Positions 27,647 to 52,306 of a DNA stretch of 61,430 nt are shown here, in pieces. Location of the stretch: positions 179,278 to 240,707 of the forward strand of contig QZJF01000017.1 of assembly GCA_003599255.1 (NCBI GenBank). Direction: 5' to 3'. The DNA comes from a candidate division WWE3 bacterium. Lineage in GTDB: Bacteria > Patescibacteriota > WWE3 > UBA101185 > UBA10185. The notes under the pieces are model-generated. The model saw only the letters and a list, made by a program, of their open reading frames with translations, was not told the DNA's origin and did not search any database. Position numbers and translations under genes: made by a program. Every line of letters starts with the position of its first letter. The stretch's first letter is position 1.

Positions 27647-28093
27647 TTATTTCTTGATGGTTAACGTCCAGCGGGACGGATCGTATCGGATACGAATTCC
27701 GTCGAGGTCAGAGGTCATCTCGCAGTATAAGCCGGGCATCAGTTGCTCAAGGCTGCTGAAGCATGGGTAAACTGCCAATAGGCCCTCTTTTGTCGTGCCG
27801 GTTTCTCCGAGAAACAGCAGGGAATTGATACTCCCGTCGAACTCGGTGCCGAGACGGATTTTTGTGACGTTTGCTACCGCAGGCGCGGTGCCTTTGGTGT
27901 CAACGTAACTGCCGGGTTCCAAGGTTACTTCTTTGTATCCTTCGAACTGCGCGGCTTCCTGTTCCAGGCGGGACTGAGCTGCGGCGATTTCTTCGGCTTT
28001 CTTTTGCTGACCCAACTGGTAGTCTTTATACCAGAGAAAGCTGGCAGCTCCCGCCACCACAACAAACAACGCGATCCACAACCACTTTTTCAT
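27647..28093 (-). CDS. Hypothetical membrane-anchored protein in a locally GC-rich gene
   Basis: ATG 28093 is preceded by GGAGG with an 8-nt spacer (the track start TTG 28108 overlaps that RBS). There is an N-terminal TM helix, WLWIALFVVVAGAASFLW. Two hand-counted 60-nt lines gave 31-32 G+C. Confidence 0.55.
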   Translation of the reverse strand: MKKWLWIALFVVVAGAASFLWYKDYQLGQQKKAEEIAAAQSRLEQEAAQFEGYKEVTLEPGSYVDTKGTAPAVANVTKIRLGTEFDGSINSLLFLGETGTTKEGLLAVYPCFSSLEQLMPGLYCEMTSDLDGIRIRYDPSRWTLTIKK

Positions 28094-28169
28094 TGTACAT
28101 TCCTCCAATCTGAGTTTGGTTTTCCCGACATTGTCGGATGGTTAAAAGCTTGCGCAATTATAAACCAAA

Positions 28170-28802
28170 ATGACCTATAAAACAAATACTATAAGACGGA
28201 TTTATCGGTGTGTTACTATATATTTAATGTCCTTTTTGAACGGTATTATCCATCAGAGTTTTAGAAGAAAAATAGTTCTTCTTGTCATACCTCTTATTAC
28301 AGCCATTGTGCTTGTGTTTGTTAGTTTAGACTCCTCTGCCTCCGATACCACTGTATTATCCAATAACTCTACGCGTAGCGATTGGGGGTACAAAGTTACA
28401 AGAGTGGTGGATGGTGACACTTTGGAAGTGGAAATTGACGGTTCCATGCAGAAGGTTCGACTGATAGGTGTCGACACACCGGAAACCAGCGATCCCAGGA
28501 AAGAGGTTGAGTGTTTTGGCAAAGAATCCTCAAGCAAAACAAGAGAATTAGTTGAGGGAAAATTTGTCAGACTAGAGCAAGATGAAACCCAAAACGACAA
28601 AGACAGGTACGGTAGACTCTTGAGGTATGTTTATATGGAAGAATCAGTGAACCTAAACCTTTATTTACTGCAAAACGGTTACGCGTACGAGTATACGTAT
28701 GAGAAGCCTTATAAATTCCAGGAAGAATTTAAACATGCTGAAACCAATGCCAGGGAAAAAGAGTTGGGCTTATGGGATCCTTTAACTTGTCCGGTTCAAT
28801 AA
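28170..28802 (+). CDS. Thermonuclease (staphylococcal nuclease, SNase-like), membrane-anchored or secreted
   Basis: VVDGDTLEV...VRLIGVDTPE...RYGRLLRYVY...LLQNGYAYEY are classic SNase motifs. There is an N-terminal TM helix. The true start may be an internal Met. Confidence 0.8.
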   Translation: MTYKTNTIRRIYRCVTIYLMSFLNGIIHQSFRRKIVLLVIPLITAIVLVFVSLDSSASDTTVLSNNSTRSDWGYKVTRVVDGDTLEVEIDGSMQKVRLIGVDTPETSDPRKEVECFGKESSSKTRELVEGKFVRLEQDETQNDKDRYGRLLRYVYMEESVNLNLYLLQNGYAYEYTYEKPYKFQEEFKHAETNAREKELGLWDPLTCPVQ

Positions 28803-28803
28803 T

Positions 28804-29277
28804 TTACAGTGCACTTTCTAAGATTTTATCAATTTTTGTTCTGAGCTCCTTAAAGATTGCATCCGTTCGTTTCATAATCTCAATATCCGCTTCATACTTT
28901 TCCTTATACATTGCGTGTATTTCGGAAGGAAATACATCGTCTATGTCCAGTATTAAATAATTTTCGGGCTGAATATTAAACTCTTTTTTGCAGTACTGAA
29001 GATGCATGTCTTTCATAAAAACTACTAGATCAGATTTTTCAACGTCGTTCCTTGTTGTTTTTTTCCAGTTAGGGGACATGAAGCTTATAAGTCTGTTGTC
29101 ATGAAGAATACGTAACGTGTACCAGGCAGCCGGTCCATACGAATTATGTTGAGCGTCAGTTCCGCTGGAACTTACTTCAACATTACTAATATTTTTTTCT
29201 TTGAGTCTGGATCTTAAATAGGCCTCAGCTAGCCTACTCCTAAATGTATTGCCGGAACAGACAAAATGAATCTTCAT
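28804..29277 (-). CDS. Low-molecular-weight phosphotyrosine phosphatase / ArsC-like
   Basis: N-terminal IHFVCSGNTFRS (CX5R-S P-loop), 157 aa. Confidence 0.75.
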   Translation of the reverse strand: MKIHFVCSGNTFRSRLAEAYLRSRLKEKNISNVEVSSSGTDAQHNSYGPAAWYTLRILHDNRLISFMSPNWKKTTRNDVEKSDLVVFMKDMHLQYCKKEFNIQPENYLILDIDDVFPSEIHAMYKEKYEADIEIMKRTDAIFKELRTKIDKILESAL

Positions 29278-29292
29278 AGTGGTACATTACTT

Positions 29293-30270
29293 TTACCACG
29301 ATTTTCGTCCGGTTGCGAACATAGCGGTTTTTAAACCTTTTTCCCATTCTTTTATTGTATTAATTACGGTTTCAGGTGAATCCAAGGCGGGTTCCAAAAA
29401 TGGCAGCGCGGCAGAATAATAGTCAGCCCCCAGAACCCTAGCCTTAAGTCCATGCACCGGGCTGCGTATTCCTCCGCTGGCCACTATTTTAATTTTGTCT
29501 TTATATTCACAGGCATATGCCAGGGATTCCTCTGTTGATATTCCGAAAGATTTAAACCATTCAGAAAGATTAGGGCTGTTTCTTCTCTGTGCTTCTATCC
29601 AAGCCCAAGATGTTCCGTTGGCACCGGCGACGTCGATGGCAAAGATGCCAATTTCGACTAATTTGCTGATAGATTCTTTATCAATTCCGTGTCCTACTTC
29701 TTTAACAAATACAGGGACTCCAATTTCTTTAACAAGATTTTCTATTTTATCCAGAAGTCCTTGAAAGTTTGTATCTCCCTCCGGCTGAATTGCTTCCTGC
29801 AGTGGGTTCAAGTGCAGGTAAAGTGCATTGGCCTCTACCATTTCCACTACAGCTTTGTAGTCATCTATAGACTTCCCATAATTAAGCTGTATCGCACCCA
29901 TATTGGCGAAAATCACTGCATTGGGCGCATGTTTCCGCACCAGTTTAAAAGAATTTCGCGCATCCTCAAGTTCCAATGCTATTCTTTGAGAACCTACGCC
30001 CATGGCAATGCCTGTTTCTTCAACTCCAATTGCCAGATTTGTATTTATTTTACCTGCGTGTGAGGTGCCTCCCGTCATGGACGCAATTATCAGAGGTTGT
30101 GTGATTTTTTGGGTAAGGAGGTTAGTAGATGTATCTACGGAGCTAAGGTCTAACTCAGGGAGAGCCTTGTAGTCAAGCTTTACATTTTCAAAAGGTTCCT
30201 TACCGATTTGTGATTGCGGATCTTTGGCCAGATTAATATGTTGAATCTTTCTGTTTTCGATTTCAGACAC
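29293..30270 (-). CDS. fni: Type 2 (FMN-dependent) isopentenyl-diphosphate delta-isomerase
   Basis: ASMTGGT, GVGSQR and ASGGIR motifs, ~325 aa TIM-barrel size. Confidence 0.8.
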   Translation of the reverse strand: MSEIENRKIQHINLAKDPQSQIGKEPFENVKLDYKALPELDLSSVDTSTNLLTQKITQPLIIASMTGGTSHAGKINTNLAIGVEETGIAMGVGSQRIALELEDARNSFKLVRKHAPNAVIFANMGAIQLNYGKSIDDYKAVVEMVEANALYLHLNPLQEAIQPEGDTNFQGLLDKIENLVKEIGVPVFVKEVGHGIDKESISKLVEIGIFAIDVAGANGTSWAWIEAQRRNSPNLSEWFKSFGISTEESLAYACEYKDKIKIVASGGIRSPVHGLKARVLGADYYSAALPFLEPALDSPETVINTIKEWEKGLKTAMFATGRKSW

Positions 30271-30276
30271 AAAGGA

Positions 30277-30930
30277 TTAGAAAGTTACGTAGTAATTAAT
30301 TTTTGCGTTTTCTCTAAGAGTCGTCAAAAGATCCTGCACCGACTGTGTAAGCTTCTGTTGTCTTAGACTTGTTCTAACCTGTTCCTTAAGGGTTTCTTCA
30401 TCTGAGTTCGGAGGTAGAGTTTCTTTGTTTTGTTCCAAGTAGGCTGTTACTTCTTCATCAGATACGTTAACACTGCCCTCAACCATTTTTTCCAATTTCT
30501 TATTCAAAACTATTTCTTCAATAAGTTGTGTTTTTGAAACATTTTGTTGCGCAAGAGCATCCTCCAACGTCATTCCGACTGCAAGTGTACTTTGTTCAAT
30601 GGTGGAAAGCTCATTGTCAATCTCTTCCTGCGAAACGGTAACATTTTTGTTCACTGCTTCCTGTTCGATTAGTTTTTTAGTTACGAGGTTGTCCAAAACG
30701 CTTTTCCCGCCCTGTTTCTCGAGTTCCTTAATAACGGCAATTCTTGTAATAGGCGAGCCGTTAACTGTAGCTGCTACAAAATAACCCCTCAAATAATAAG
30801 CACCTGCGCCGAGTAATGCTGCTAAAACGACAGCTACTAAAACTTTTAAATTGTTCTTTGAAATTTTTGGCAGCGAGATTTTTTTATTCTCTATTTTCTT
30901 GTCCTCTTGTTGTGTCATATCGTCTGACAT
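30277..30930 (-). CDS. SurA N-terminal-domain-like chaperone (no PPIase domain), membrane-anchored
   Basis: TM anchor followed by VATVNGSPITR...LIEQEA... helical repeats, as in PrsA/SurA N-domains. Confidence 0.45.
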   Translation of the reverse strand: MSDDMTQQEDKKIENKKISLPKISKNNLKVLVAVVLAALLGAGAYYLRGYFVAATVNGSPITRIAVIKELEKQGGKSVLDNLVTKKLIEQEAVNKNVTVSQEEIDNELSTIEQSTLAVGMTLEDALAQQNVSKTQLIEEIVLNKKLEKMVEGSVNVSDEEVTAYLEQNKETLPPNSDEETLKEQVRTSLRQQKLTQSVQDLLTTLRENAKINYYVTF

Positions 30931-31003
30931 TATGTCAGTATAACATTAGTTTTTCTTAGATCAAGATCTTGCCCTGAACGACAAACTCGGATAAATTTGT
31001 AAG

Positions 31004-31702
31004 ATGCAAAGTGACGAGAAGTATAAATCCCTGGTCTCGTTCAACAGATTAATATTAGCGGTTCCTCACCCGGACGATGAAACATATTATTCTGCGGGGC
31101 TGATTCAGAGACTTAATAGTCTTGGAAAATTTCTGAAAGTTATAGTTATGACAAAAGGGGAGAATAGTACCCTTCGTTATGGCGTTTTGGAAAACGAGAA
31201 TTTGCCCGATGTACGTGAAAAAGAATTTATGAAAATCATCAGGATTCTAGGGGTTACTCATTATGCTTTGAATAAATTCAAAGACGGTGGCATTGAAAGT
31301 GAGAGTGATAAGGTGTCCAAGTATTTATCTTCGGAAATTGAGGGAATAAAACCAGATGCTGTAGTGACTTACGAACCTTCTGGTGTTTATGGTCATCCTG
31401 ATCATGTGGCTTTAACAAAAATAATTGAGGAATTAAGTAAAATTTATCCCTTTGAAATTATATATTTAACAGTCGGTAGTTCTTATAACACTTTTGAAGA
31501 TGCTGTACACATGGCGAAAGATCCCGATAGTATAAAACCCATTGAACCGGATCTTGTTCTTAAATTGACCTCATTAGAAACGATTAATAAACTGCGCGCC
31601 ATTTTAGCGTACAAATCACAGTTTAAGTTCGATTTAGAATTTGTATGGAAATTGCTCAGAAGAAGACTTCTAACCCGCGAGTTTTTGAAATTAAATGTCT
31701 AA
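31004..31702 (+). CDS. PIG-L/LmbE-family N-acetylglucosaminyl deacetylase
   Basis: VPHPDDE and GHPDH metal-binding motifs. Confidence 0.75.
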   Translation: MQSDEKYKSLVSFNRLILAVPHPDDETYYSAGLIQRLNSLGKFLKVIVMTKGENSTLRYGVLENENLPDVREKEFMKIIRILGVTHYALNKFKDGGIESESDKVSKYLSSEIEGIKPDAVVTYEPSGVYGHPDHVALTKIIEELSKIYPFEIIYLTVGSSYNTFEDAVHMAKDPDSIKPIEPDLVLKLTSLETINKLRAILAYKSQFKFDLEFVWKLLRRRLLTREFLKLNV

Positions 31703-32449
31703 AGAAACGACCAGCATCTTGTGATCCGAACCGTTTCTAAATCGGGAAATAAAACTTTCACTTACACTTACTCCTTTAGGTACCAGTATATGGTCAAGCT
31801 GTTTCATCGGGTACCTGAGCATGTGTGTACTCTGGCCCTTGAATACATTGACAAAGCCATATTCTTCACATAACTTATCAAAAGTTTTGCGCTCGTTAGT
31901 TAAATAATCCGGCTTTCTAAAACCCCTTCCCCAACCGGTTAATATATTGAAAAGTCGACTATCCATAATATTGAAATCACCGCAGAGTATGTTGATCTTA
32001 GTTTTGTCTAATGTTTTGAGAATATTTTCAAATTGTTCGAGTCTGTCGCAAGTCCCGATCGCGCAAGAAAGTCTTGCGTTGATTACTACAATATTACTTT
32101 CCTGAAATTCTGTTAAAACAGCTTTATGAAGTTCGGTAGTTTTTCTGAGTTTTTTGTAAATTAATGTATCCATAAGAGTTGAATAACCCTTTTCGAAATA
32201 TGAGATTTCCGTGCTTCTAACCGGAGATTTTTTACTTAAAGTACATATTGTAGCTCCCGCATGTGGGGACTCAGTAACAAAGTCATAAGTGTACTCAACA
32301 TGATATTCTCCCTCGTCGCGTATTTGTTCCGCGAAACTTTCCGGAAGTTCCTGCAGGCATACCACGTCGGGATCCTGTTTATAGATAAAATCAAGCAATC
32401 TCCGCAGTTTTTTATTTACATTCAAAACATTCCAACTTATAAATTTCAT
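31691..32449 (-). CDS. Endonuclease/exonuclease/phosphatase (EEP) family protein
   Basis: ISWNV...VCLQE at the N-terminus, GDFN, and C-terminal SDHKML, the typical EEP catalytic pattern. Confidence 0.7.
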   Translation of the reverse strand: MKFISWNVLNVNKKLRRLLDFIYKQDPDVVCLQELPESFAEQIRDEGEYHVEYTYDFVTESPHAGATICTLSKKSPVRSTEISYFEKGYSTLMDTLIYKKLRKTTELHKAVLTEFQESNIVVINARLSCAIGTCDRLEQFENILKTLDKTKINILCGDFNIMDSRLFNILTGWGRGFRKPDYLTNERKTFDKLCEEYGFVNVFKGQSTHMLRYPMKQLDHILVPKGVSVSESFISRFRNGSDHKMLVVSLDI

Positions 32450-32455
32450 AAGATT

Positions 32456-33001
32456 TTAAATGGGGGTTTCATTAAGCCTAAAGATATAGCCCAGGAATTT
32501 ACTGAGTATATGCAAAAGTAACCCACAAATTAGCGAAACAACAACTATAGTAATCGAAAATCGGAAAAAAGGAAATGTTAATGCTATCGTTCCCACAATC
32601 CAATCGGTTTGATCGAAAGGGAACCACATTTTTCCGGGGAGTATGTTTACCTGACGCTTTGCAAAACTTTTTGCCGCGTCCCCCAGCAAAGCTCCTGCAC
32701 CTGCCATTAAACCCAAAAGTATCCCCGCTTCAGAATAATCTGTAAGGGATATGCTTCGAATATACTCTGAGTTAATGTAAAGATACCTTTGCAGATATAC
32801 AGTTGCAATGGAGGCTAATACGCCTGTTACAAATCCTCGCATGGTTTTATGTTCGCCGAAGACGCGCTTATTTTTGAAAGTCAAATAAAAGTCCATCGGA
32901 AAGTTCAAACCAGGAAATAACTTGGCCGCCCCAACCGGGGTCATGTTTGCCACACCTGCCGGGAGTAAGAACCATAAAGCCTGAATTAATATAGTAAACA
33001 T
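32456..33001 (-). CDS. carS: CDP-archaeol synthase (CarS, DUF46)-like CTP-transferase
   Basis: 181 aa with five TM helices. LLPAGVANMTPV, KTMRGFVTGV, LGDAAKSFAKRQ and FDQTD match my recollection of A. fulgidus CarS (LLPCYTPN, KTWRGFVGGV, FGDLCGSFIKRR, VDQLM). Confidence 0.6.
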   Translation of the reverse strand: MFTILIQALWFLLPAGVANMTPVGAAKLFPGLNFPMDFYLTFKNKRVFGEHKTMRGFVTGVLASIATVYLQRYLYINSEYIRSISLTDYSEAGILLGLMAGAGALLGDAAKSFAKRQVNILPGKMWFPFDQTDWIVGTIALTFPFFRFSITIVVVSLICGLLLHILSKFLGYIFRLNETPI

Positions 33002-33004
33002 AGA

Positions 33005-33574
33005 TCAGGTCTTAATTTTGAAAACTGATACTGTCTCTAAGTTTACATTACCACGTGTTTTAATAAATATTGCTATCTGTTCCAATGCCATAGCTGTTCC
33101 GGAAATTGCTGAAAGAAACAGTAATGTTTTTATTTCATATCCGACGGATGCCAGCAAAAGATAAGAAGTAAAGCACAGCCCAAAAAACTTATTTGTATAA
33201 AGATGTAGTATGATGAGCCGTTTACTGATTACATAGCTTACAAACCATGATAAAAACAACATCCCAAAGGGGATTACCCATAGCCAAACATTATCCGTAA
33301 ACAACTCCGGCTTTATCAAAAAGAATCCTGAAAATCCCACAACATCAATAATTATATCGGCATACGAGTCAAGTTTGGATCCCAGTTCCGATACCCAGTT
33401 GTACTTACGTGCCAGATATCCGTCTACGCTATCAAGAAGACGGGCGGCAAGATAAAAAAAGGCAAAGTGAAAGCTATTCCCGTTTGCAATCAAGAAGATC
33501 ATTGGGAAGATAAGGAGGAGGCGGAAGATTGTAATTGCGTTTGGAATATGCTTTAAATATTTTTCGTTTGACAT
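33005..33574 (-). CDS. CDP-alcohol phosphatidyltransferase
   Basis: DSVDGYLARKYNWVSELGSKLDSYADIIID matches the DGx2ARx8Gx3Dx3D signature. Multi-pass membrane protein. Confidence 0.8.
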   Translation of the reverse strand: MSNEKYLKHIPNAITIFRLLLIFPMIFLIANGNSFHFAFFYLAARLLDSVDGYLARKYNWVSELGSKLDSYADIIIDVVGFSGFFLIKPELFTDNVWLWVIPFGMLFLSWFVSYVISKRLIILHLYTNKFFGLCFTSYLLLASVGYEIKTLLFLSAISGTAMALEQIAIFIKTRGNVNLETVSVFKIKT

Positions 33575-33583
33575 TTTAATATG

Positions 33584-34603
33584 TCAATTATACCTTGCAT
33601 CCACACACTTGTTATTTTCACACGTTATCTCGTTTTCATACGGCCATCTGTCGCAGTCATATATCGGCAACACCTTATCTTTTTGGTAAAGTTTGATGCT
33701 GGTTTCAATTTGAGTGAGATTTTCGTTTTTGTTTACAAGATTAAAACATTCAAAGGGAAAGCCGTAACTTACAGCTTTGCAGTCTGTGGCCTGTTGGCAA
33801 TAATTAGCTTTTTCAAGTGCGTATTTCAGGTTTTCTACAGTTTTGTCGGTTGCGATTTCCGAGGCCGTTTCTTTTTTCCTGAAGGTGTATTCGCTGTAGG
33901 GGATGACCTCAAAATAATCCTGAGAAGCATCCTGACTCTTTTCGGTGTTTACTACCATGGTGTCTGTTGAAATAACCAGAGAAATGTAGGATTTTCCGAC
34001 ATTGGGAAGTTTAAAATTCTTTTTGTATGTATCCGTAATTTTAAAATAATCTTGCGAACGGGCAATCCTGGTGACATTTTGTTCATACTTCTCATACAAA
34101 CCGGGAATGTTGTAAAAAATAACGTACTGCTCATCATAAGAATCCGGATAGCCGTTAAGCACAGTTAAAATGTCTTCATAAGTGAACTCAATATCCATAA
34201 CCGAGGATGTCCCATATACATAAAGAGTGGTTACTTTATCAAGATTTACTGAATAAATCCTTACCGCAGAGTCAACACCGCCCATGATATCCGTAAATGC
34301 CAAATATTTATTTGAGAACGAAAGACTAATGGAAGGTTCAACATTGCATAGACCTTCATCGTTGCCCAAATCCATAATTCTGGCAATTTTCTTTTTATTA
34401 TCATTTTCATCGAAAATATAAATGTCGCAATTGTCGACTTCGTAATCGGTAATCATTTTATTATTATTGTTAAGCTGGAAGTTTAAAAACCGCAGAGATG
34501 AATTACTGATTCTGGCCGACTCCATCTGATTAAATGCGATGAATGCTGTCAGTAATACTATGAATATAAATAAAAATATCAAAAAAAGTCTTATAGCCTT
34601 CAC
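33584..34603 (-). CDS. Hypothetical secreted or membrane-anchored protein
   Basis: 339 aa with an N-terminal TM helix and a Cys-containing C-terminal region. No family recognised. Confidence 0.5.
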   Translation of the reverse strand: MKAIRLFLIFLFIFIVLLTAFIAFNQMESARISNSSLRFLNFQLNNNNKMITDYEVDNCDIYIFDENDNKKKIARIMDLGNDEGLCNVEPSISLSFSNKYLAFTDIMGGVDSAVRIYSVNLDKVTTLYVYGTSSVMDIEFTYEDILTVLNGYPDSYDEQYVIFYNIPGLYEKYEQNVTRIARSQDYFKITDTYKKNFKLPNVGKSYISLVISTDTMVVNTEKSQDASQDYFEVIPYSEYTFRKKETASEIATDKTVENLKYALEKANYCQQATDCKAVSYGFPFECFNLVNKNENLTQIETSIKLYQKDKVLPIYDCDRWPYENEITCENNKCVDARYN

Positions 34604-34703
34604 GGGTTCATTATAGTAGAAAAACCGACCGGTTCACAGAGGTATGAGTTTTTGTGCTATTATTTTGCCAAATAAGGCGCACGTCAAAAATTGAGAGGAG
34701 AAT

Positions 34704-35204
34704 ATGGAAGTCAAAATTCTAAGACCAAGTTTTGGCCGTTTCCAACTGATTGAGTGGTTCAAGAAACAGAGCGGACAATCAGTTTTAGCTTTTGTCTATA
34801 CCGCTGATAAAGATAGGATCGCAGAAGCTTGTGTACTTCTGGATTTTTACTCCGGTAACGAAGTCTCAATAGTGATTGCTGAGTTTCTTCATGTAATTCA
34901 GCATGATCCTACCCGTCATCGATACCATGTATGGAAAGGACCCGTTGAAGAGCTTTATAACTTTGTACTTTCGGACAAAGAGGAGACGTACGGTCATCTT
35001 TCAGTAAGAAACTTTGTTCGAAAGAATAAGCCGAGGAGTTTCTTTTTACTTAAAGACGCTCTTGTCGAGCTGGATTTTAGGTTTTCAGATGAGATTATGA
35101 CATCGTGGAAAGTGTCGAAGAGACCTTCTCGAAAATTACGATACAATCCCAATGATGACCCTAATCAGCTGAGATTAAACCTAACCTTTACCGGAGCGAA
35201 TTAA
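34704..35204 (+). CDS. Hypothetical protein
   Basis: 166 aa, preceded by GAGAGGAG and followed by its own terminator. Confidence 0.5.
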   Translation: MEVKILRPSFGRFQLIEWFKKQSGQSVLAFVYTADKDRIAEACVLLDFYSGNEVSIVIAEFLHVIQHDPTRHRYHVWKGPVEELYNFVLSDKEETYGHLSVRNFVRKNKPRSFFLLKDALVELDFRFSDEIMTSWKVSKRPSRKLRYNPNDDPNQLRLNLTFTGAN

Positions 35205-35229
35205 TGCCCCTCGCTCCGGGATTTTTTTA
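35191..35229 (+). terminator. Rho-independent terminator
   Basis: A 9-bp stem, CCGGAGCGA (35191-35199) with TCGCTCCGG (35211-35219), then a T7 run (35222-35228). The stem overlaps the stop codon. Confidence 0.7.
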
Positions 35230-35266
35230 TATAGACATAATACTTTTAAAGGTCTAAGATTTTATT

Positions 35267-36418
35267 GTGGCCCAAGATGTAGATCCAAACGCAGACAAGA
35301 TATTACCTGAAATTCCTCCTCTTTCACCTCAGCCAAAACCTATTGATAATGGGGACAGAAATACCACTATAGCTCCTCCGGGGGTTGCCGTGCCGACTCA
35401 GGAAAAAATTCCAATTAAAGTAAAAATGCCCCCCGTAGTTTGGAATGATACGCAGGAAGTTTTAAAAAGTATAAACACAAAGTTAGGTGGGGCCGTGGTC
35501 ACATATTTTACACGAGGCAGCATAGTAAGCGACGATGTCAAATATTTTTATTCCCATTTGAAAACAATCGGTCACCAGGAAAAATTATTTTTTATCATAA
35601 CTTCAAGAGGAGGTGACGGAATGAGTGCCTACAGAATTGCCTCTTTGTTAAAAAAGTTTTGCGACGAGTTGATCATCGTAGTACCTGAAGTTGCCGCCAG
35701 TGCAGCCACCATGCTTAGTCTGGCCGGTGACAAAATCATCATGAGCTCGTTTTCTTATCTTACTGCAGTTGATACCAGTATTGTGCATCCGTTAAATCCG
35801 CTTGATGTCGATAAGAAGCCGGTTCGTATTGAGCTTGAGGAAATCAAGAGATCCGTTTCTGCTTTATCAAGTACATTTAAGGCCGATGAGTCTCAAAGCA
35901 AAGTTTATGAAACGATTTTTTCATATTTGCATCCCGCTGCTTTCGGTGCCCTGGAAAGAGCCTCCAATCTTTCAGAAATGTTGTGCAAGGACATTCTGAG
36001 TTTGAGAAAGAATCCTCCTTCAGAAGAAGAAGCAAGTGTTCTGATTAATAAGCTGAACAAGGAGTACCCATCTCATGGATACCCCATTGTTCCCGATAAA
36101 GCCCAAAGTCTGGGGTTGCCCGTGGAACTGGCTGACGAAGAAACAAACAACTTGTTGTGGTCTTTGATCAATTTCTACAGATATATAACAGAGCCTGTAA
36201 GGACCGATTTCAATGATTCCTCATTCCATAGCGAGCAGTATATGAATGTAATAGAATCGGTTGGCAGACGATTGGGCGTTAAAAATGTCCTGGAAAGACG
36301 CCTTGATCCTATAATTAAAAACTGGACGACCTTGAGGAATGATTTTGTTTGGGAAGCACTTTTTGAGAAAGAAGAAAACGGTGAGAAAAAGCTTATTAAG
36401 AGTAATTTAAATTTTTGA
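35267..36418 (+). CDS. SDH-family (serine dehydrogenase proteinase, ClpP/SppA-fold) serine protease
   Basis: FFIITSRGGDG...IIVVPEVAASAATMLSLAGDKIIM parallels the hTPGG...VPhyAMSGGTLIALAADeIvM pattern of Pfam SDH_sah as I recall it. GTG start. Confidence 0.5.
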   Translation: MAQDVDPNADKILPEIPPLSPQPKPIDNGDRNTTIAPPGVAVPTQEKIPIKVKMPPVVWNDTQEVLKSINTKLGGAVVTYFTRGSIVSDDVKYFYSHLKTIGHQEKLFFIITSRGGDGMSAYRIASLLKKFCDELIIVVPEVAASAATMLSLAGDKIIMSSFSYLTAVDTSIVHPLNPLDVDKKPVRIELEEIKRSVSALSSTFKADESQSKVYETIFSYLHPAAFGALERASNLSEMLCKDILSLRKNPPSEEEASVLINKLNKEYPSHGYPIVPDKAQSLGLPVELADEETNNLLWSLINFYRYITEPVRTDFNDSSFHSEQYMNVIESVGRRLGVKNVLERRLDPIIKNWTTLRNDFVWEALFEKEENGEKKLIKSNLNF

Positions 36419-48388: not shown

Positions 48389-49027
48389 TTACTCTCGGGT
48401 GAATTGCATGATAAACAATGGTCTTTCCTGCGTCAACCCGATCTTTTTCCCCCAGGTGGATTCCAGCTTTCTCAGATATGCCGGTTCCGTGGGATTCAGC
48501 GACATAAGCGTTAGGCCCGACCCTCTATATGCCGGTATCGTTTCGTTGCGTAGATAGGATATATTAATTTCCGGTAAATCCAATCTTTTGGATTCAGACG
48601 GTTCGAGATTTGGAGAATATCCAAGCACTGTTTCGAGAGTCCCCCCTTTTTTAAGAATCGCTGCAACATCGGAAAGTGCTAGTTTATCGGGTTTTACAAG
48701 TTTCTGAAGCAAAGTTCCCCAAGGGAGAATTATATACACTTTATCGGCTTTTCCTCGTAATTCCGGAGGTAATTGCTCAACCGAACTCACCACAAATAAG
48801 ACATTGATTAATTTTTTTCTTACGGCCTTTTTTGAATAGATTTGGAGCTGCTTTTCGCTTGGGTCAATTCCGATAAAAAAAATCTCATGCTTTTTAAGCG
48901 CGTTCTTGTATACAAATCTTCCGTCTCCCGTGCCTAGATCTATCACAACTGTGGGAAAATTTTCAATAATTTTATTTAATTCCGGTTCATTAATTTCTAC
49001 AGTTTTGTTCCCTTTTACTATACGCAT
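48389..49027 (-). CDS. 16S rRNA (adenine1408-N1)-methyltransferase family (NpmA/KamB-like)
   Basis: IVKGNKTVEI...ELNKII...VIDLGTGDGRFVYKNA...FFIGIDP...ILPWGTLL...STWGKK is co-linear with my recollection of NpmA (ILKGTKTVDL...IDLGTGDGRNIYKLA...FYIGIDP...LFPWGTLL...SLWAKR). Similar length. Confidence 0.55.
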   Translation of the reverse strand: MRIVKGNKTVEINEPELNKIIENFPTVVIDLGTGDGRFVYKNALKKHEIFFIGIDPSEKQLQIYSKKAVRKKLINVLFVVSSVEQLPPELRGKADKVYIILPWGTLLQKLVKPDKLALSDVAAILKKGGTLETVLGYSPNLEPSESKRLDLPEINISYLRNETIPAYRGSGLTLMSLNPTEPAYLRKLESTWGKKIGLTQERPLFIMQFTRE

Positions 49028-50387: not shown

Positions 50388-51110
50388 TTACTTTTTGCCC
50401 GTATCCCCACCAAATCTTCTGTCTCTACTCATAAAATCCCAAACAGCTTCTTTTAGTTTTTCCGGTCCGAAATCGGGGAAATATGTCTTTGGAAAATAGA
50501 ACTCAGAATAAGCTGATTGCCAGGACATAAAACCGCTTAGTCTCTGTTCCCCGCTGGTTCTAATGATGAGATCGGGAGCAGGAACACCTCTGGTATCGAG
50601 ATTCTTCTCAATATTTTCCTCAGTAAACTCGATTCCTTGAGAGGCCATTTTGTTGATTGTTCGTAAGAGTTCATCGTGTCCCCCGTAATCCATGCCCAGA
50701 CAGACTGTAAAGCCGGTATCAAAATCCTTGGTCTCTTCTTCCATTTCAACCAGTGTTTTAACCACATCTGCCGGTAAACGGTCTCTTCTTCCCAAATGAA
50801 GGAATCTCACCTTTTCCTTAATAAATTTTTGTTTGTAATTTTTTGTGAAATTTCTGGCCAGTTCGAAAAGATATTCATTTTCCTCTTTCGATCTTTTCCA
50901 ATTTTCGGTAGAAAAAGCCCAAGAGGAAAAGTATTGTATTCCCATTTCTCTTGCAGCGTTCAAAAGGAGCTCAAAATTTTCGGCTCCCTTGCGATGCCCT
51001 TCAAGAGTCGGAAGTCCTTTTTCCTTGGCCCAGCGCCTGTTTCCGTCAGGTATTATCGCCACATGAGCAACCATATTGGCCTTTTCTTTATGTTCATCAG
51101 TCATAGACAC
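50388..51110 (-). CDS. uppS: Isoprenyl transferase (undecaprenyl-diphosphate synthase family)
   Basis: HVAIIPDGNRRWA, FSSWAFSTENWKR, and a RTSGEQRLSGF motif. Confidence 0.9.
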   Translation of the reverse strand: MSMTDEHKEKANMVAHVAIIPDGNRRWAKEKGLPTLEGHRKGAENFELLLNAAREMGIQYFSSWAFSTENWKRSKEENEYLFELARNFTKNYKQKFIKEKVRFLHLGRRDRLPADVVKTLVEMEEETKDFDTGFTVCLGMDYGGHDELLRTINKMASQGIEFTEENIEKNLDTRGVPAPDLIIRTSGEQRLSGFMSWQSAYSEFYFPKTYFPDFGPEKLKEAVWDFMSRDRRFGGDTGKK

Positions 51111-51229: not shown

Positions 51230-52306
51230 ATGGATGGCAAATTAGGCAAAGATAAACTAAAAGACTATATCGATCGGGCCGGTAAAATCATGCTCCCTAT
51301 CCTGGATGAAGAAATAGCGAAAGCGGAGGAGTTTGGAGAAGTTCAAGTACATATGGTCGAGTCTTATAAGAAAATGATCGCGGCTGGAAAAGGTATACGG
51401 GGATTCTTAACCGAACTCACATATAAAGCTTGTGGGGGGGAGGAAACCGATAAAATTCTTTGGGCAAGCACATATATAGAATTCTTTCATTCTGCCATTC
51501 TTATCCAGGACGATTTTATGGATAGAGACGATTTCAGAAGAGGGCTTCCTTCTGCTCATAAGGAATTTGAAAATATCGGAAAGGAATTAGGTATCAGGAT
51601 TCCGGCACAGCACTTTGGAAATTCACTCTCGGAGTGTTTGTTTGACTTCGGAGCGTATCTTTCTTGGAGAGTGCTTATAACTTCGGGTTTTAACCAAGAT
51701 CTTATCTTAAAGGTGGGTGAATTATATAGCCATCATATTATGAGGCTTGCTCTTGGGCAGAGTCTTGATATGTCCATTTCCGGTGTCCGGGAAGTCAGTT
51801 CTGAGGACATATTAAAAGTATTATGGAATAAATCCGGCGAGTATACCGCATATTTACCCATGATGTCCGGTGCTGTACTTGCCGGCCAGAATGATCCAAA
51901 GGTATTGGAATCAATAGAGAATTATGCGAAATGTTTCGGGTGGGCCTTTCAAATTCAGGACGATTTATTGGGAGCCTTTGGGAATCAGGAGGAGTTGGGA
52001 AAACCTATTGGATCTGACTTTTCTGAAGGGAAAAATACCCTTTTGGTACTTCATCTGAGAAAAACAGGTTCGAAGGAGCAGCTAAAGTTTTATGAAAGTT
52101 TATTAAATCGAAGCGATATTTCGAAAGACGAGGAAGCAAAGATGAAGCAAATTCTGATTGATACAGGTGCCCGAGAGTCTGTAACAGGACAAGGTTGGCA
52201 TTATGTTGAAGAAGGTAGAAAGTATGTTAAAGAAATTACGAAAAACAAAGAACTCCAGGATATTCTGGAGTCTTTGCTGAATTTCGTAATGGAACGCACC
52301 AGATAA
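51230..52306 (+). CDS. trans-Polyprenyl diphosphate synthase (GGPP/FPP synthase family)
   Basis: First Asp-rich motif [15 protein letters not shown] and second Asp-rich motif FQIQDDLLG. Confidence 0.85.

What the first reader, a model, noticed from the sequence alone, without database searches (positions are those of the whole stretch)
32456..33574. CarS-like (CDP-archaeol synthase family) gene paired with a CDP-alcohol phosphatidyltransferase in a bacterium
The 181-aa five-TM protein matches the conserved blocks of archaeal CarS/DUF46 as I recall them: LLP...N..P, KT.RGF..GV, GD...SF.KR, DQ. It sits 3 nt downstream of a CDP-alcohol phosphatidyltransferase with a perfect DGx2ARx8Gx3Dx3D motif. 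This is the activation and head-group-transfer pair of phospholipid synthesis, but with the archaeal-type activating enzyme.

The window also holds a type-2 IDI (29293-30270), a trans-polyprenyl synthase (51230-52306) and UppS (50388-51110). No CdsA, GGGP synthase or DGGGP synthase is visible here. The substrate could therefore be diacylglycerol-phosphate or an isoprenoid ether lipid.
Basis: partly seen in the sequence, partly recalled or inferred. Interest (0 to 1): 0.55.

Follow-up and report, generated by a model that had tools for sequence, protein, structure and literature searches.

The report
CarS-type lipid activator paired with head-group transferase
A tiny-genome (CPR/Patescibacteria) bacterium that lacks the normal bacterial CdsA enzyme carries two operon pairs that join an archaeal-type CarS lipid-activating enzyme to a head-group transferase. 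It most likely uses them to rebuild scavenged lipids, and the family is real and widespread in this phylum but has no tested function.

Summary
Window 32456-33001(-) encodes a 181-aa CarS-family protein: PF01864 scores 91.9 bits against 19.6 for CdsA, and the predicted fold matches A. pernix CarS. It lies 3 nt behind a 189-aa CDP-alcohol phosphotransferase (CAPT) with a complete catalytic motif.

The 1.1-Mb genome (90% complete) has no CdsA, GGGPS, G1PDH or PlsY. It does have PlsC, DgkA and a second, divergent CarS-like/CAPT pair on another contig.

The pairing is not chance:
- A CAPT lies within 3 kb in 63 of 82 homologous loci.
- Natural CAPT::CarS-like fusion proteins exist.
- All 19 strong CarS-like genomes in a 150-genome phylum sample also have a CAPT.
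- In that sample CarS-like (24) far outnumbers true CdsA (3). The two never co-occur, and GGGPS was found in none.

Best reading: this is a Patescibacterial stand-in for CdsA that activates salvaged phosphatidic acid. The head group is unresolved.

Particular to this genome:
- The pair sits in a four-gene block (PIG-L, EEP, CarS-like, CAPT) that is missing at the syntenic site of the same-genus genome.
- The block is flanked by a type-2 IDI that is also rare in relatives, and an archaeal-like UbiA lies elsewhere in the genome. A minority isoprenoid-lipid reading therefore stays open.

This scan has already flagged CarS-like genes in at least 50 other genomes.

The parts
33005..33574 (-). CDP-alcohol phosphotransferase (CAPT1), 189 aa. 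It is divergent and the head group is unresolved; the weak best matches are PgsA.
   Evidence: PF01066 scores 69.3 bits and the D-x2-DG-x2-AR-x8-G-x3-D-x3-D motif is complete. NCBIfam pgsA scores 48 bits and AIPS 43 bits, both far below their cut-offs. The best PDB sequence hit is S. aureus PgsA 7DRJ. The protein is nearly an orphan: one relative at 80%, one at 45%, then motif-only hits.
32456..33001 (-). CarS-family CTP:lipid-phosphate cytidylyltransferase (CarS-like 1), 181 aa, five TM helices.
   Evidence: PF01864 scores 91.9 bits. NF003114 scores 109 bits, below its cut-off of 148. 5GUF matches at E=3.6e-11 by sequence and TM 0.73/0.83 by fold. Catalytic-block residues are invariant in 32 homologues.
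31691..32449 (-). Endonuclease/exonuclease/phosphatase (EEP) family protein, 252 aa, 6 nt behind CarS-like. It is a candidate lipid-phosphate phosphatase or an ExoIII-like nuclease.
   Evidence: PF03372 scores 67.5 bits. The nearest PDB entry is B. subtilis ExoA 5CFE at 33.6 bits. It is the only EEP gene in the genome and the family is sporadic in relatives (12 of 40). A homologue lies next to CarS-like in Levyibacteriota locus L025. The gene is part of the four-gene indel.
31004..31702 (+). PIG-L/LmbE-family de-N-acetylase, 232 aa, convergent with the EEP gene and overlapping its 3' end by 12 nt.
   Evidence: PF02585 scores 90.2 bits. BshB and MshB matches fall below their cut-offs. PDB relatives are diacetylchitobiose deacetylase and MshB. 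The same convergent neighbour occurs in L043, L052, L053 and L094. The gene is part of the indel.
33584..34603 (-). 339-aa protein with one N-terminal TM segment and no known family, 9 nt upstream of CAPT1. It probably leads the operon and is native, because the same-genus genome also has it.
   Evidence: No Pfam hit. Its homologue in G001 (L119 527-1288) lies 72 nt from the SurA-like gene.
29293..30270 (-). Type-2 isopentenyl-diphosphate isomerase. It lies on the other side of the native SurA-like gene and is a second accessory insertion.
   Evidence: TIGR02151 scores 366 bits. It was found in only G000 and, as a partial match, G011 among 41 relatives. It is absent at the syntenic site of G001.

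Best explanation
The two genes form a working two-step phospholipid head-group module.

Step 1 (inferred). The 181-aa CarS-family membrane enzyme transfers CMP from CTP onto the phosphate of a membrane lipid phosphate and makes a CDP-activated lipid.

Step 2 (inferred). The CAPT encoded 3 nt upstream moves the lipid-phosphate from CMP onto an alcohol acceptor.

The genome has no CdsA, GGGPS, G1PDH or PlsY, but it does have PlsC and DgkA. The lipid is therefore most likely phosphatidic acid derived from scavenged host lipid, so the CarS-like enzyme would do the job of bacterial CdsA.

The acceptor is unresolved. CAPT1 is weakly PgsA-like. The CAPT of the second pair, on contig C3, is weakly like archaetidylinositol-phosphate synthase. 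The EEP protein just downstream may remove the terminal phosphate of the product, a role that a PHP phosphoesterase appears to fill in most related loci.

Shown: gene identity, fold, conserved residues, operon packing, conservation of the pairing, fusions, and the genome inventory.

Inferred: catalytic activity, the lipid substrate, the head group and the role of EEP.
For: Family and fold.

The pairing is conserved:
- A CAPT lies within 3 kb of CarS-like in 63 of 82 loci and within 1 kb in 51.
- In a 150-genome phylum sample all 19 strong CarS-like genomes have a CAPT, against 30 of 126 genomes without CarS-like. In 12 of those 19 the two matches lie 1.3 kb or less apart.

Rosetta-stone fusions exist:
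- P0064, P0121 and P0203 carry CAPT and CarS-like in one chain.
- The 150-aa CAPT of the C3 pair aligns end to end with the N-terminal half of P0064 (E=6e-16).
- P0165 fuses a PAP2-type phosphatase to CarS-like.

CdsA replacement:
- The genome has no CdsA over the cut-off.
- In the phylum sample 24 genomes have CarS-like, 3 have true CdsA and none has both.

Against an archaeal pathway:
- PcrB/GGGPS was found in 0 of 151 genomes.
- No G1PDH was found in this genome.

Salvage enzymes are present: PlsC and DgkA beside a PAP2 gene.

A phosphoesterase slot sits next to the pair and varies by family: PHP in 46 loci, Metallophos in L064, EEP here and in L025.

CAPT partners in related loci span several head-group classes: AIPS/PIPS-like, PssA-like, PgsA-like and phosphatidylcholine-synthase-like. 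That fits a general CDP-lipid donor.

Starr et al. 2018 (PMC6031116) already inferred conversion of scavenged phosphatidate to CDP-DAG and then PI or PG in a Saccharibacterium.
Against: - No biochemical data exist for any bacterial CarS-like enzyme.
- Purified archaeal CarS prefers DGGGP over phosphatidate and did not complement an E. coli cdsA mutant (review PMC9385802).
- DgkA and PAP2 may serve undecaprenol recycling rather than DAG salvage.
- This genome unusually carries a type-2 IDI and an archaeal-like UbiA that its relatives lack.
- The EEP protein is closest to ExoIII nucleases.
- The genome is only 90% complete.
- No source of glycerol-3-phosphate was checked, and myo-inositol-phosphate synthase was not found.
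Confidence: 0.6

Rival explanations
1. Isoprenoid reading. The CarS-like enzymes activate an isoprenoid (archaeal-type or mixed) glycerol-phosphate lipid. The cell would make this lipid from its own IDI-2, short-chain prenyl-diphosphate synthase and the archaeal-like UbiA prenyltransferase. The two CAPTs would then add the head groups.
For: - The enzyme belongs to the CarS family, not the CdsA family, and archaeal CarS prefers DGGGP.
- Among 41 relatives, type-2 IDI and the 254-aa UbiA were found only in G000 and G011, so they vary together with the rare CarS-like/CAPT genes.
- The UbiA's best NCBIfam hits are DGGGPS-type families and its Atlas neighbours are mostly archaeal.
- The CAPT of the C3 pair is closest to archaetidylinositol-phosphate synthase.
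- IDI-2 also lies near CarS-like in L017 and L020, the nearest named relatives.
Against: - No GGGPS/PcrB and no G1PDH were found in the genome.
- GGGPS was found in 0 of 151 phylum genomes, including the 24 other genomes (besides G000) with CarS-like.
- The UbiA scores 46-54 bits against cut-offs of 269-296 and sits between dnaB and efp, with no lipid context.
- IDI, the prenyl synthase and UppS are fully explained by undecaprenyl-phosphate synthesis for the cell wall.
- G011 shares IDI-2 and the UbiA but has no CarS-like gene.
Confidence: 0.15
2. Polyprenyl-phosphate reading. The CarS-like protein acts on a polyprenol or polyprenyl phosphate, either as a CTP-dependent kinase like dolichol and phytol kinases of the same superfamily or by forming a CDP-polyprenol. 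The CAPT would build a lipid-linked envelope polymer precursor rather than a membrane phospholipid.
For: - The CTP-transferase superfamily includes CTP-dependent polyprenol kinases (established knowledge, not tested here).
- UppS, a prenyl synthase and a decaprenyl-phosphate phosphoribosyltransferase-like UbiA are present.
- A sugar de-N-acetylase (PIG-L) lies in the same block.
Against: - The residue blocks shared with A. pernix CarS are intact.
- CAPTs need a CDP-alcohol donor, and the CAPT::CarS-like fusions argue for a cytidylyl transfer whose product is handed on directly.
- Only about 16% of phylum genomes have the gene, although undecaprenyl-phosphate recycling should be universal.
- Many partner CAPTs are recognisably PIPS/AIPS-, PssA- or Pcs-like phospholipid enzymes.
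Confidence: 0.1
3. The adjacency is incidental, or the genes are decaying remnants with no joint function.
For: - CAPT1 is very divergent and has almost no close relatives.
- Most close relatives do without both genes.
Against: - Both reading frames are intact and all catalytic motifs are kept.
- The gaps are 3 nt and 6 nt, which is operon packing.
- The pairing recurs across the phylum and as fusions.
- A metagenomic relative keeps both proteins at 85% and 80% identity, on contigs of the same recorded length, 4370 nt.
Confidence: 0.03

Closest known systems
Archaeal CDP-archaeol synthase CarS (A. pernix ApCarS, PDB 5GUF; A. fulgidus AfCarS) together with archaeal CAPTs (archaetidylinositol-phosphate and archaetidylserine synthases)
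   Same: Same Pfam family (PF01864), the same five-helix fold (TM 0.73/0.83), and the same conserved K-T-x-x-G, G-D-x3-S-F-x-K-R and D-Q-x-D blocks. The logic is also the same: CTP activation followed by CAPT head-group transfer.
   Different: The host is bacterial (CPR). The score falls below the NCBIfam CarS equivalog cut-off (109 against 148 bits). GGGPS and G1PDH, which would supply DGGGP, were not found. The nearest relatives are other Patescibacteria and DPANN archaea, both lipid scavengers. No canonical archaeal CarS could be included in the tree.
Bacterial CdsA with PgsA/PssA (CDP-diacylglycerol pathway). The E. coli ynbA-ynbB operon, a CAPT plus a CdsA paralogue, is the nearest operon analogue (recalled from the literature, not tested here).
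   Same: The proposed reaction and role are the same: phosphatidate plus CTP gives a CDP-lipid, followed by CAPT transfer. The two families share a superfamily core (PF01148 weak hit at profile positions 170-230; TmCdsA TM about 0.54). CdsA and CarS-like were mutually exclusive in the phylum sample.
   Different: The protein has 181 aa and five helices, against about 260-290 aa and nine helices with a dimerisation domain in CdsA. It scores below the PF01148 cut-off. Substrate preference is unknown.
The CAPT - PHP phosphoesterase - CarS-like cassette of Saccharibacteria and other Patescibacteria. This scan has noted it repeatedly. A scavenged-phosphatidate to CDP-DAG to PI/PG route was inferred for a Saccharibacterium by Starr et al. 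2018 (PMC6031116).
   Same: Same CarS-like family and same tight linkage to a CAPT and a phosphoesterase-type gene. The genomic background is also the same, with CdsA absent and a lipid-auxotroph lifestyle.
   Different: There is no PHP gene anywhere in this genome; an EEP protein sits in that place. CAPT1 is not of the AIPS/PIPS-like type that dominates the cassette. The window copy falls outside the large Saccharibacteria/Levyibacteriota clade. There are two pairs in one genome. The gene was not found in close relatives.

Membership tests
CarS / CDP-archaeol synthase (Pfam PF01864) | Score above the Pfam gathering threshold over the full-length profile | tested here: met
   91.9 bits against a cut-off of 22, covering profile positions 1-173 of 175. 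The C3 paralogue scores 84.6 bits.
CarS equivalog (NCBIfam NF003114, CDP-2,3-bis-(O-geranylgeranyl)-sn-glycerol synthase) | Score above the curated equivalog cut-off of 148 bits | tested here: not met
   109.2 bits for the window copy and 111.6 bits for the C3 copy.
CarS / CDP-archaeol synthase | Five-transmembrane-helix fold of ApCarS with a cytoplasmic polar cavity | tested here: met
   The AF2 model has pLDDT 94.6. Foldseek places 5GUF first at E=1.9e-6, TM 0.73/0.83 and rmsd 2.6 A.
CarS / CDP-archaeol synthase | Conserved sequence blocks shared with ApCarS (K-T-x-x-G; G-D-x3-S-F-x-K-R; D-Q-x-D) | tested here: met
   The blocks align identically to 5GUF. K52, G56, G107, D108, S112, K115, R116, D130 and D133 are invariant in 32 homologues.
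CarS / CDP-archaeol synthase | Genomic company of the archaeal pathway (G1PDH, GGGPS, DGGGPS) | tested here: not met
   No PF13685 match, no PF01884 match, and only a weak DGGGPS-like UbiA. The genome is 90% complete.
CarS / CDP-archaeol synthase | CTP:DGGGP cytidylyltransferase activity | not testable with these tools
   This needs an enzyme assay.
CdsA (Pfam PF01148, CDP-diacylglycerol synthase) | Score above the gathering threshold; nine-helix architecture of about 260-290 aa | tested here: not met
   19.6 bits against a cut-off of 24, and only profile positions 170-230 match. The protein has 181 aa and five helices.
CDP-alcohol phosphotransferase (Pfam PF01066) | Family score plus the complete D-x2-D-G-x2-A-R-x8-G-x3-D-x3-D motif | tested here: met
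   69.3 bits. D48, D51, G52, A55, R56, G65, D69 and D73 are all present.
PgsA (TIGR00560) or AIPS/PIPS (NF040950, NF045883) equivalogs | Score above the curated cut-off, which would fix the head-group acceptor | tested here: not met
   pgsA scores 48 against 109.1, AIPS 43.3 against 180 and PIPS 37.6 against 170. The fold search ranks PgsA first, but at TM 0.38-0.44 for all CAPTs it does not discriminate.
Patescibacterial CAPT-PHP-CarS-like cassette | CAPT adjacent to CarS-like | tested here: met
   The gap is 3 nt here. The same linkage occurs within 3 kb in 63 of 82 related loci.
Patescibacterial CAPT-PHP-CarS-like cassette | PHP-domain phosphoesterase between or beside the two genes | tested here: not met
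   tblastn with two PHP cassette proteins found nothing in the genome. An EEP protein lies downstream instead.

The most novel reading that the evidence does not exclude
This genome, unlike its relatives, has assembled a non-canonical route to isoprenoid-based phospholipids. The parts would be the type-2 IDI, a GGPP/FPP-type synthase, an archaeal-like UbiA prenyltransferase, two CarS-type activators and two CAPTs. The route would work without a recognisable GGGPS or G1PDH. That would make it a natural bacterial producer of archaeal-like or hybrid membrane lipids by a new first step.
Probability: 0.1. Interest if true: 0.85.

Novelty: new variant of a known kind. Interest (0 to 1): 0.45.

Why it matters
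CarS and CdsA are the enzymes at which the archaeal and bacterial phospholipid pathways are thought to tell their substrates apart. This is a whole bacterial phylum, plus the intermixed DPANN archaea, that uses the CarS type while lacking both CdsA and the archaeal core-lipid enzymes. It is a natural experiment on what really sets substrate choice at the 'lipid divide'.

It also bears on how lipid-auxotrophic ultra-small symbionts rebuild membranes from host lipid.

This genome is a convenient test case for two reasons. It holds two divergent pairs, so two head groups can be compared. A same-genus relative lacks the block, so the gain can be studied against a close background.

The finding is not unique. 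Public annotation already names these genes 'CDP-archaeol synthase', and this scan has met them in at least 50 other genomes.

Tried and rejected
The contexts of the metagenomic relatives P0002 and P0305 could therefore not be read.
- A metagenome scan with CAPT1 returned one motif-level locus (L122) with no CarS-like gene. It was uninformative.
- The promoter and terminator scan of 28000-35300 gave counts equal to shuffled sequence.
- GC and GC3 of the four-gene block (0.36-0.41) do not differ from the flanks or from the genome (0.407). There is no compositional sign of recent transfer.
- The fold search with the CAPT1 model ranked PgsA first but with TM 0.38-0.44 for every CAPT, so it cannot assign a head group.
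- Canonical archaeal CarS sequences could not be obtained for rooting. The archaeal handle I reached led only to small DPANN-sized genomes. I therefore make no claim about donor or direction.
- The listing of cluster members gave no organism names. The class-level label 'Microgenomates' comes only from an earlier agent note.
- Residue-level roles from the ApCarS structure paper could not be read. Only reviews were held.
- Literature searches for CarS in CPR or Saccharibacteria found no dedicated paper.
- A search for the same EEP and PIG-L neighbours elsewhere gave only a few loci. That is too few to prove linkage.
Full report
OBSERVATION

The CDP-alcohol phosphotransferase (CAPT1) is at 33005-33574(-), 189 aa. 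A 181-aa protein is at 32456-33001(-), and 3 nt separate them.

The 181-aa protein matches Pfam CarS-like PF01864 over its whole length (E=6.3e-26, 91.9 bits). It touches the CdsA family PF01148 only at 19.6 bits, below that family's cut-off. The NCBIfam CarS equivalog gives 109 bits, under its curated 148.

By sequence, its only solved relative is A. pernix CarS 5GUF (E=3.6e-11). In an alignment of 32 homologues D37, G49, K52, G56, G107, D108, S112, K115, R116, F129, D130 and D133 never vary.

An AlphaFold model (pLDDT 94.6) has five long helices. It matches 5GUF at TM 0.73/0.83, and T. maritima CdsA follows at about 0.54.

CAPT1 scores 69.3 bits to PF01066 and carries the complete D-x2-DG-x2-AR-x8-G-x3-D-x3-D motif.

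THE GENOME

The window lies on the largest contig (240.7 kb) of a 1.10-Mb, 25-contig assembly rated 90% complete.

Whole-genome family searches found:
- no CdsA above the cut-off;
- no PcrB/GGGPS;
- no PlsY;
- no G1PDH-type Fe-ADH_2;
- no DAGK_cat;
- no myo-inositol-phosphate synthase.

The genome does have:
- one PlsC-type acyltransferase;
- a DgkA convergent with a PAP2 phosphatase;
- two UbiA-family genes. One is a decaprenyl-phosphate phosphoribosyltransferase type above its cut-off. The other is a 254-aa protein with weak DGGGPS-like hits.

The genome holds exactly two CAPT genes, and each sits directly in front of a CarS-like gene. The second pair is on contig C3. Its order is a YdjM-family membrane hydrolase, then a 150-aa CAPT, then a 181-aa CarS-like gene after a 4-nt gap.

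The two CarS-like proteins are only 33% identical, and the two CAPTs share little beyond the motif. The pairs are therefore old and distinct, not a recent duplication.

IS THE PAIRING MEANINGFUL?

A scan of species-representative genomes found at least 521 loci that encode relatives. The 80 best are almost all Patescibacteria: many Saccharibacteria, plus Levyi-, Roizman-, Dojka-, Komeili-, Peri-, Colwell- and Parcubacteria. A few are DPANN archaea.

I clustered all ORFs of these loci together with the two from this genome.
- A CAPT lies within 3 kb of CarS-like in 63 of 82 loci and within 1 kb in 51. Several of the exceptions are truncated contigs.
- A roughly 217-aa PHP-domain phosphoesterase lies immediately upstream of CarS-like in 46 loci. 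The typical order is CAPT, PHP, CarS-like.
- In other loci the slot holds a calcineurin-like phosphoesterase (L064) or an EEP protein (the window and L025).

The all-against-all representative search found single chains that carry both CAPT and CarS-like (P0064, P0121, P0203). It also found one chain that fuses a divergent PAP2 phosphatase to CarS-like (P0165). The short CAPT of the C3 pair aligns end to end with the N-terminal half of P0064 (32% over 146 aa, E=6e-16). That pair is therefore the split form of a natural fusion.

PHYLUM SAMPLE

I searched an even sample of 150 genomes from the window's phylum.
- 24 have a CarS-like gene, and only the window's genome has two.
- True full-length CdsA occurs in 3 genomes, none of which has CarS-like. 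Every other PF01148 hit is a cross-hit on a CarS-like gene.
- All 19 genomes with a strong CarS-like match also have a CAPT, against 30 of 126 genomes without CarS-like. In 12 of the 19 the two matches lie 1.3 kb or less apart.
- GGGPS was found in none of the 151 genomes.

Related genomes are not independent, so these figures are descriptive counts and not tests.

They do argue for three things. The CarS type is the usual CTP-transferase of this phylum. It works with CAPTs. It does so without the archaeal core-lipid pathway.

The CAPT partners in related loci match several head-group classes. Of 51 scanned, 49 match AIPS and 48 match PIPS. Some are PssA-, PgsA- or phosphatidylcholine-synthase-like. 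This fits a general CDP-lipid donor.

WHAT IS PARTICULAR HERE

Among 40 relatives of the same genus, family, order and class, CarS-like was found only in one same-order genome, and that copy is very divergent. None of the 40 has CdsA. CAPTs occur in just three.

DNA comparison with the same-genus genome G001 (68-74% identity) shows a clear difference at this site. In G001 the native 339-aa gene and the SurA-like gene are neighbours, 72 nt apart. In the window they are separated by 2.65 kb that holds CAPT1, CarS-like, EEP and PIG-L. The four genes are thus one insertion/deletion unit.

The type-2 IDI on the other side of the SurA-like gene is also missing at that site in G001. Among the 41 genomes it was found only in G000 and, as a partial match, G011. 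The archaeal-like UbiA shows the same G000-plus-G011 pattern.

The block is not compositionally distinct from its surroundings.

In a quick maximum-likelihood tree of 105 sequences the window copy pairs with an 85%-identical metagenomic protein. It sits in a small group of MAG sequences (SH-aLRT 93) outside the well-supported clade (97) that holds Saccharibacteria, Levyibacteriota, Roizmanbacteria and a Microgenomates genome. The C3 copy is a long, unresolved branch near a mixed DPANN/Parcubacteria group.

The tree has no canonical archaeal outgroup and many open forks, so I claim no donor. The indel, the scarcity in relatives and the tree together fit lateral gain. Loss in relatives is not excluded.

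HEAD GROUP AND ACCESSORY GENES

CAPT1 is nearly an orphan: one relative at 80%, one at 45%, then motif-only hits. Its weak best matches are PgsA, by NCBIfam at 48 bits, by PDB 7DRJ and by bacterial PgsA-like Atlas clusters. The fold search does not discriminate. The C3 CAPT leans towards AIPS/PIPS.

The EEP protein is the only member of its family in the genome and is sporadic in relatives. Its nearest solved relatives are ExoIII-type nucleases. I rate its role as the pathway phosphatase at no better than even odds.

A PIG-L de-N-acetylase convergent with the cassette recurs in four Saccharibacteria loci. This hints at a sugar-modified lipid or wall precursor, but there are too few independent cases to say more.

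MECHANISM AND RIVALS

The best-supported mechanism has three steps.
- The CarS-like enzyme transfers CMP from CTP to a lipid phosphate.
- The CAPT passes the lipid-phosphate to an alcohol.
- A neighbouring phosphoesterase may finish the head group.

I put about 0.85 on this two-enzyme coupling. I put about 0.6 on the fuller claim that the lipid is scavenged or re-acylated phosphatidic acid, that is, a CdsA-like role.

Published work on archaeal CarS counts against that claim. Purified archaeal CarS prefers DGGGP and did not complement an E. coli cdsA mutant (PMC9385802).

The isoprenoid rival (0.15) draws on the unusual IDI-2 and UbiA of this genome. It lacks GGGPS and G1PDH. G011 also shares IDI-2 and the UbiA without having CarS-like.

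The polyprenyl-phosphate rival (0.10) fits poorly with the fusions, with the phospholipid-type CAPT partners and with the gene's presence in only about 16% of the phylum.

COMPARISON AND NOVELTY

The protein is a member of the Pfam CarS family by score, fold and motifs. It fails the curated CarS equivalog cut-off and lacks the archaeal pathway around it, so I do not file it as a CDP-archaeol synthase proper.

Functionally it most resembles CdsA with PgsA or PssA. Organisationally it most resembles the CAPT-PHP-CarS-like cassette of Saccharibacteria.

Public annotation already calls such genes 'CDP-archaeol synthase'. A genome paper inferred a scavenged-phosphatidate to CDP-DAG to PI/PG route in a Saccharibacterium (PMC6031116). 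This scan has flagged CarS-like genes in at least 50 other genomes, and a later check there noted that 1,137 of 1,146 CarS-like genomes lack GGGPS. My own 0 of 25 agrees with that.

No paper in the searched library treats the bacterial CarS clade as such.

I rate it a new variant of a known kind, with interest 0.45. It is solid and testable, and it is relevant to the lipid divide and to symbiont lipid salvage. It is also recurrent and partly anticipated.

Noticed in passing
window 48389-49027 (-): A 212-aa protein matches the NpmA family of 16S rRNA (adenine1408-N1) methyltransferases at 177 bits against a cut-off of 60. That family includes aminoglycoside-resistance enzymes. Its role in a CPR genome is unknown.
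   Followed up: no
window 29293-30270 (-): The type-2 IDI was found in only G000 and, as a partial match, G011 among 41 relatives. It is missing at the syntenic site of the same-genus genome. It is a second accessory insertion, on the other side of the native SurA-like gene from the CarS-like block.
   Followed up: partly
G000 contig C11, L007:1459-2223 (+): A 254-aa UbiA-family prenyltransferase has weak DGGGPS-type hits and mostly archaeal Atlas neighbours. Among 41 relatives only G011 shares it, at 27% identity. It lies between dnaB and efp.
   Followed up: partly
G000 contig C3, L004:1498-2952 (-): This is the second CarS-like/CAPT pair. A YdjM-family membrane hydrolase overlaps the CAPT start by 31 nt, and an alpha/beta hydrolase lies convergent downstream. 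The 150-aa CAPT is the split form of the natural CAPT::CarS-like fusions.
   Followed up: partly
P0064, P0121, P0203, P0165 (representative library): Natural fusion proteins exist: CAPT plus CarS-like (330-353 aa), and DUF212/PAP2 plus CarS-like (330 aa). In the phylum sample, G135's CarS-like match also lies in a 338-aa open frame.
   Followed up: partly
L017:5535-6467, L027:4076-5008 and seven other loci: A roughly 310-aa protein with no Pfam family lies next to CarS-like in 9 of 82 loci (Dojkabacteria, some Saccharibacteria, L017 and L020). It has no homologue in this genome.
   Followed up: no
G000 contig C1:145201-145593, L008:1375-2328 (+): A decaprenyl-phosphate phosphoribosyltransferase-type UbiA scores 236 bits, above its cut-off of 207. 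This suggests a polyprenyl-phospho-pentose wall precursor in this CPR bacterium.
   Followed up: no
Tree; loci L055, L061, L080, L085, L100-L115: CarS-like proteins of DPANN archaea and of Parcubacteria, Peregrinibacteria and Komeilibacteria are intermixed at 40-47% identity to the window protein. This suggests exchange between the two groups of ultra-small symbionts. The tree is not rooted and the point was not tested.
   Followed up: partly
L016, L017, L037, L047, L049, L069, L018: Several records that carry close CarS-like relatives are titled Gamma- or Deltaproteobacteria or Chloroflexia. Where a size is visible it is very small: an 886-kb chromosome and a 1.57-Mb contig. The submitters' labels may be unreliable.
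   Followed up: no
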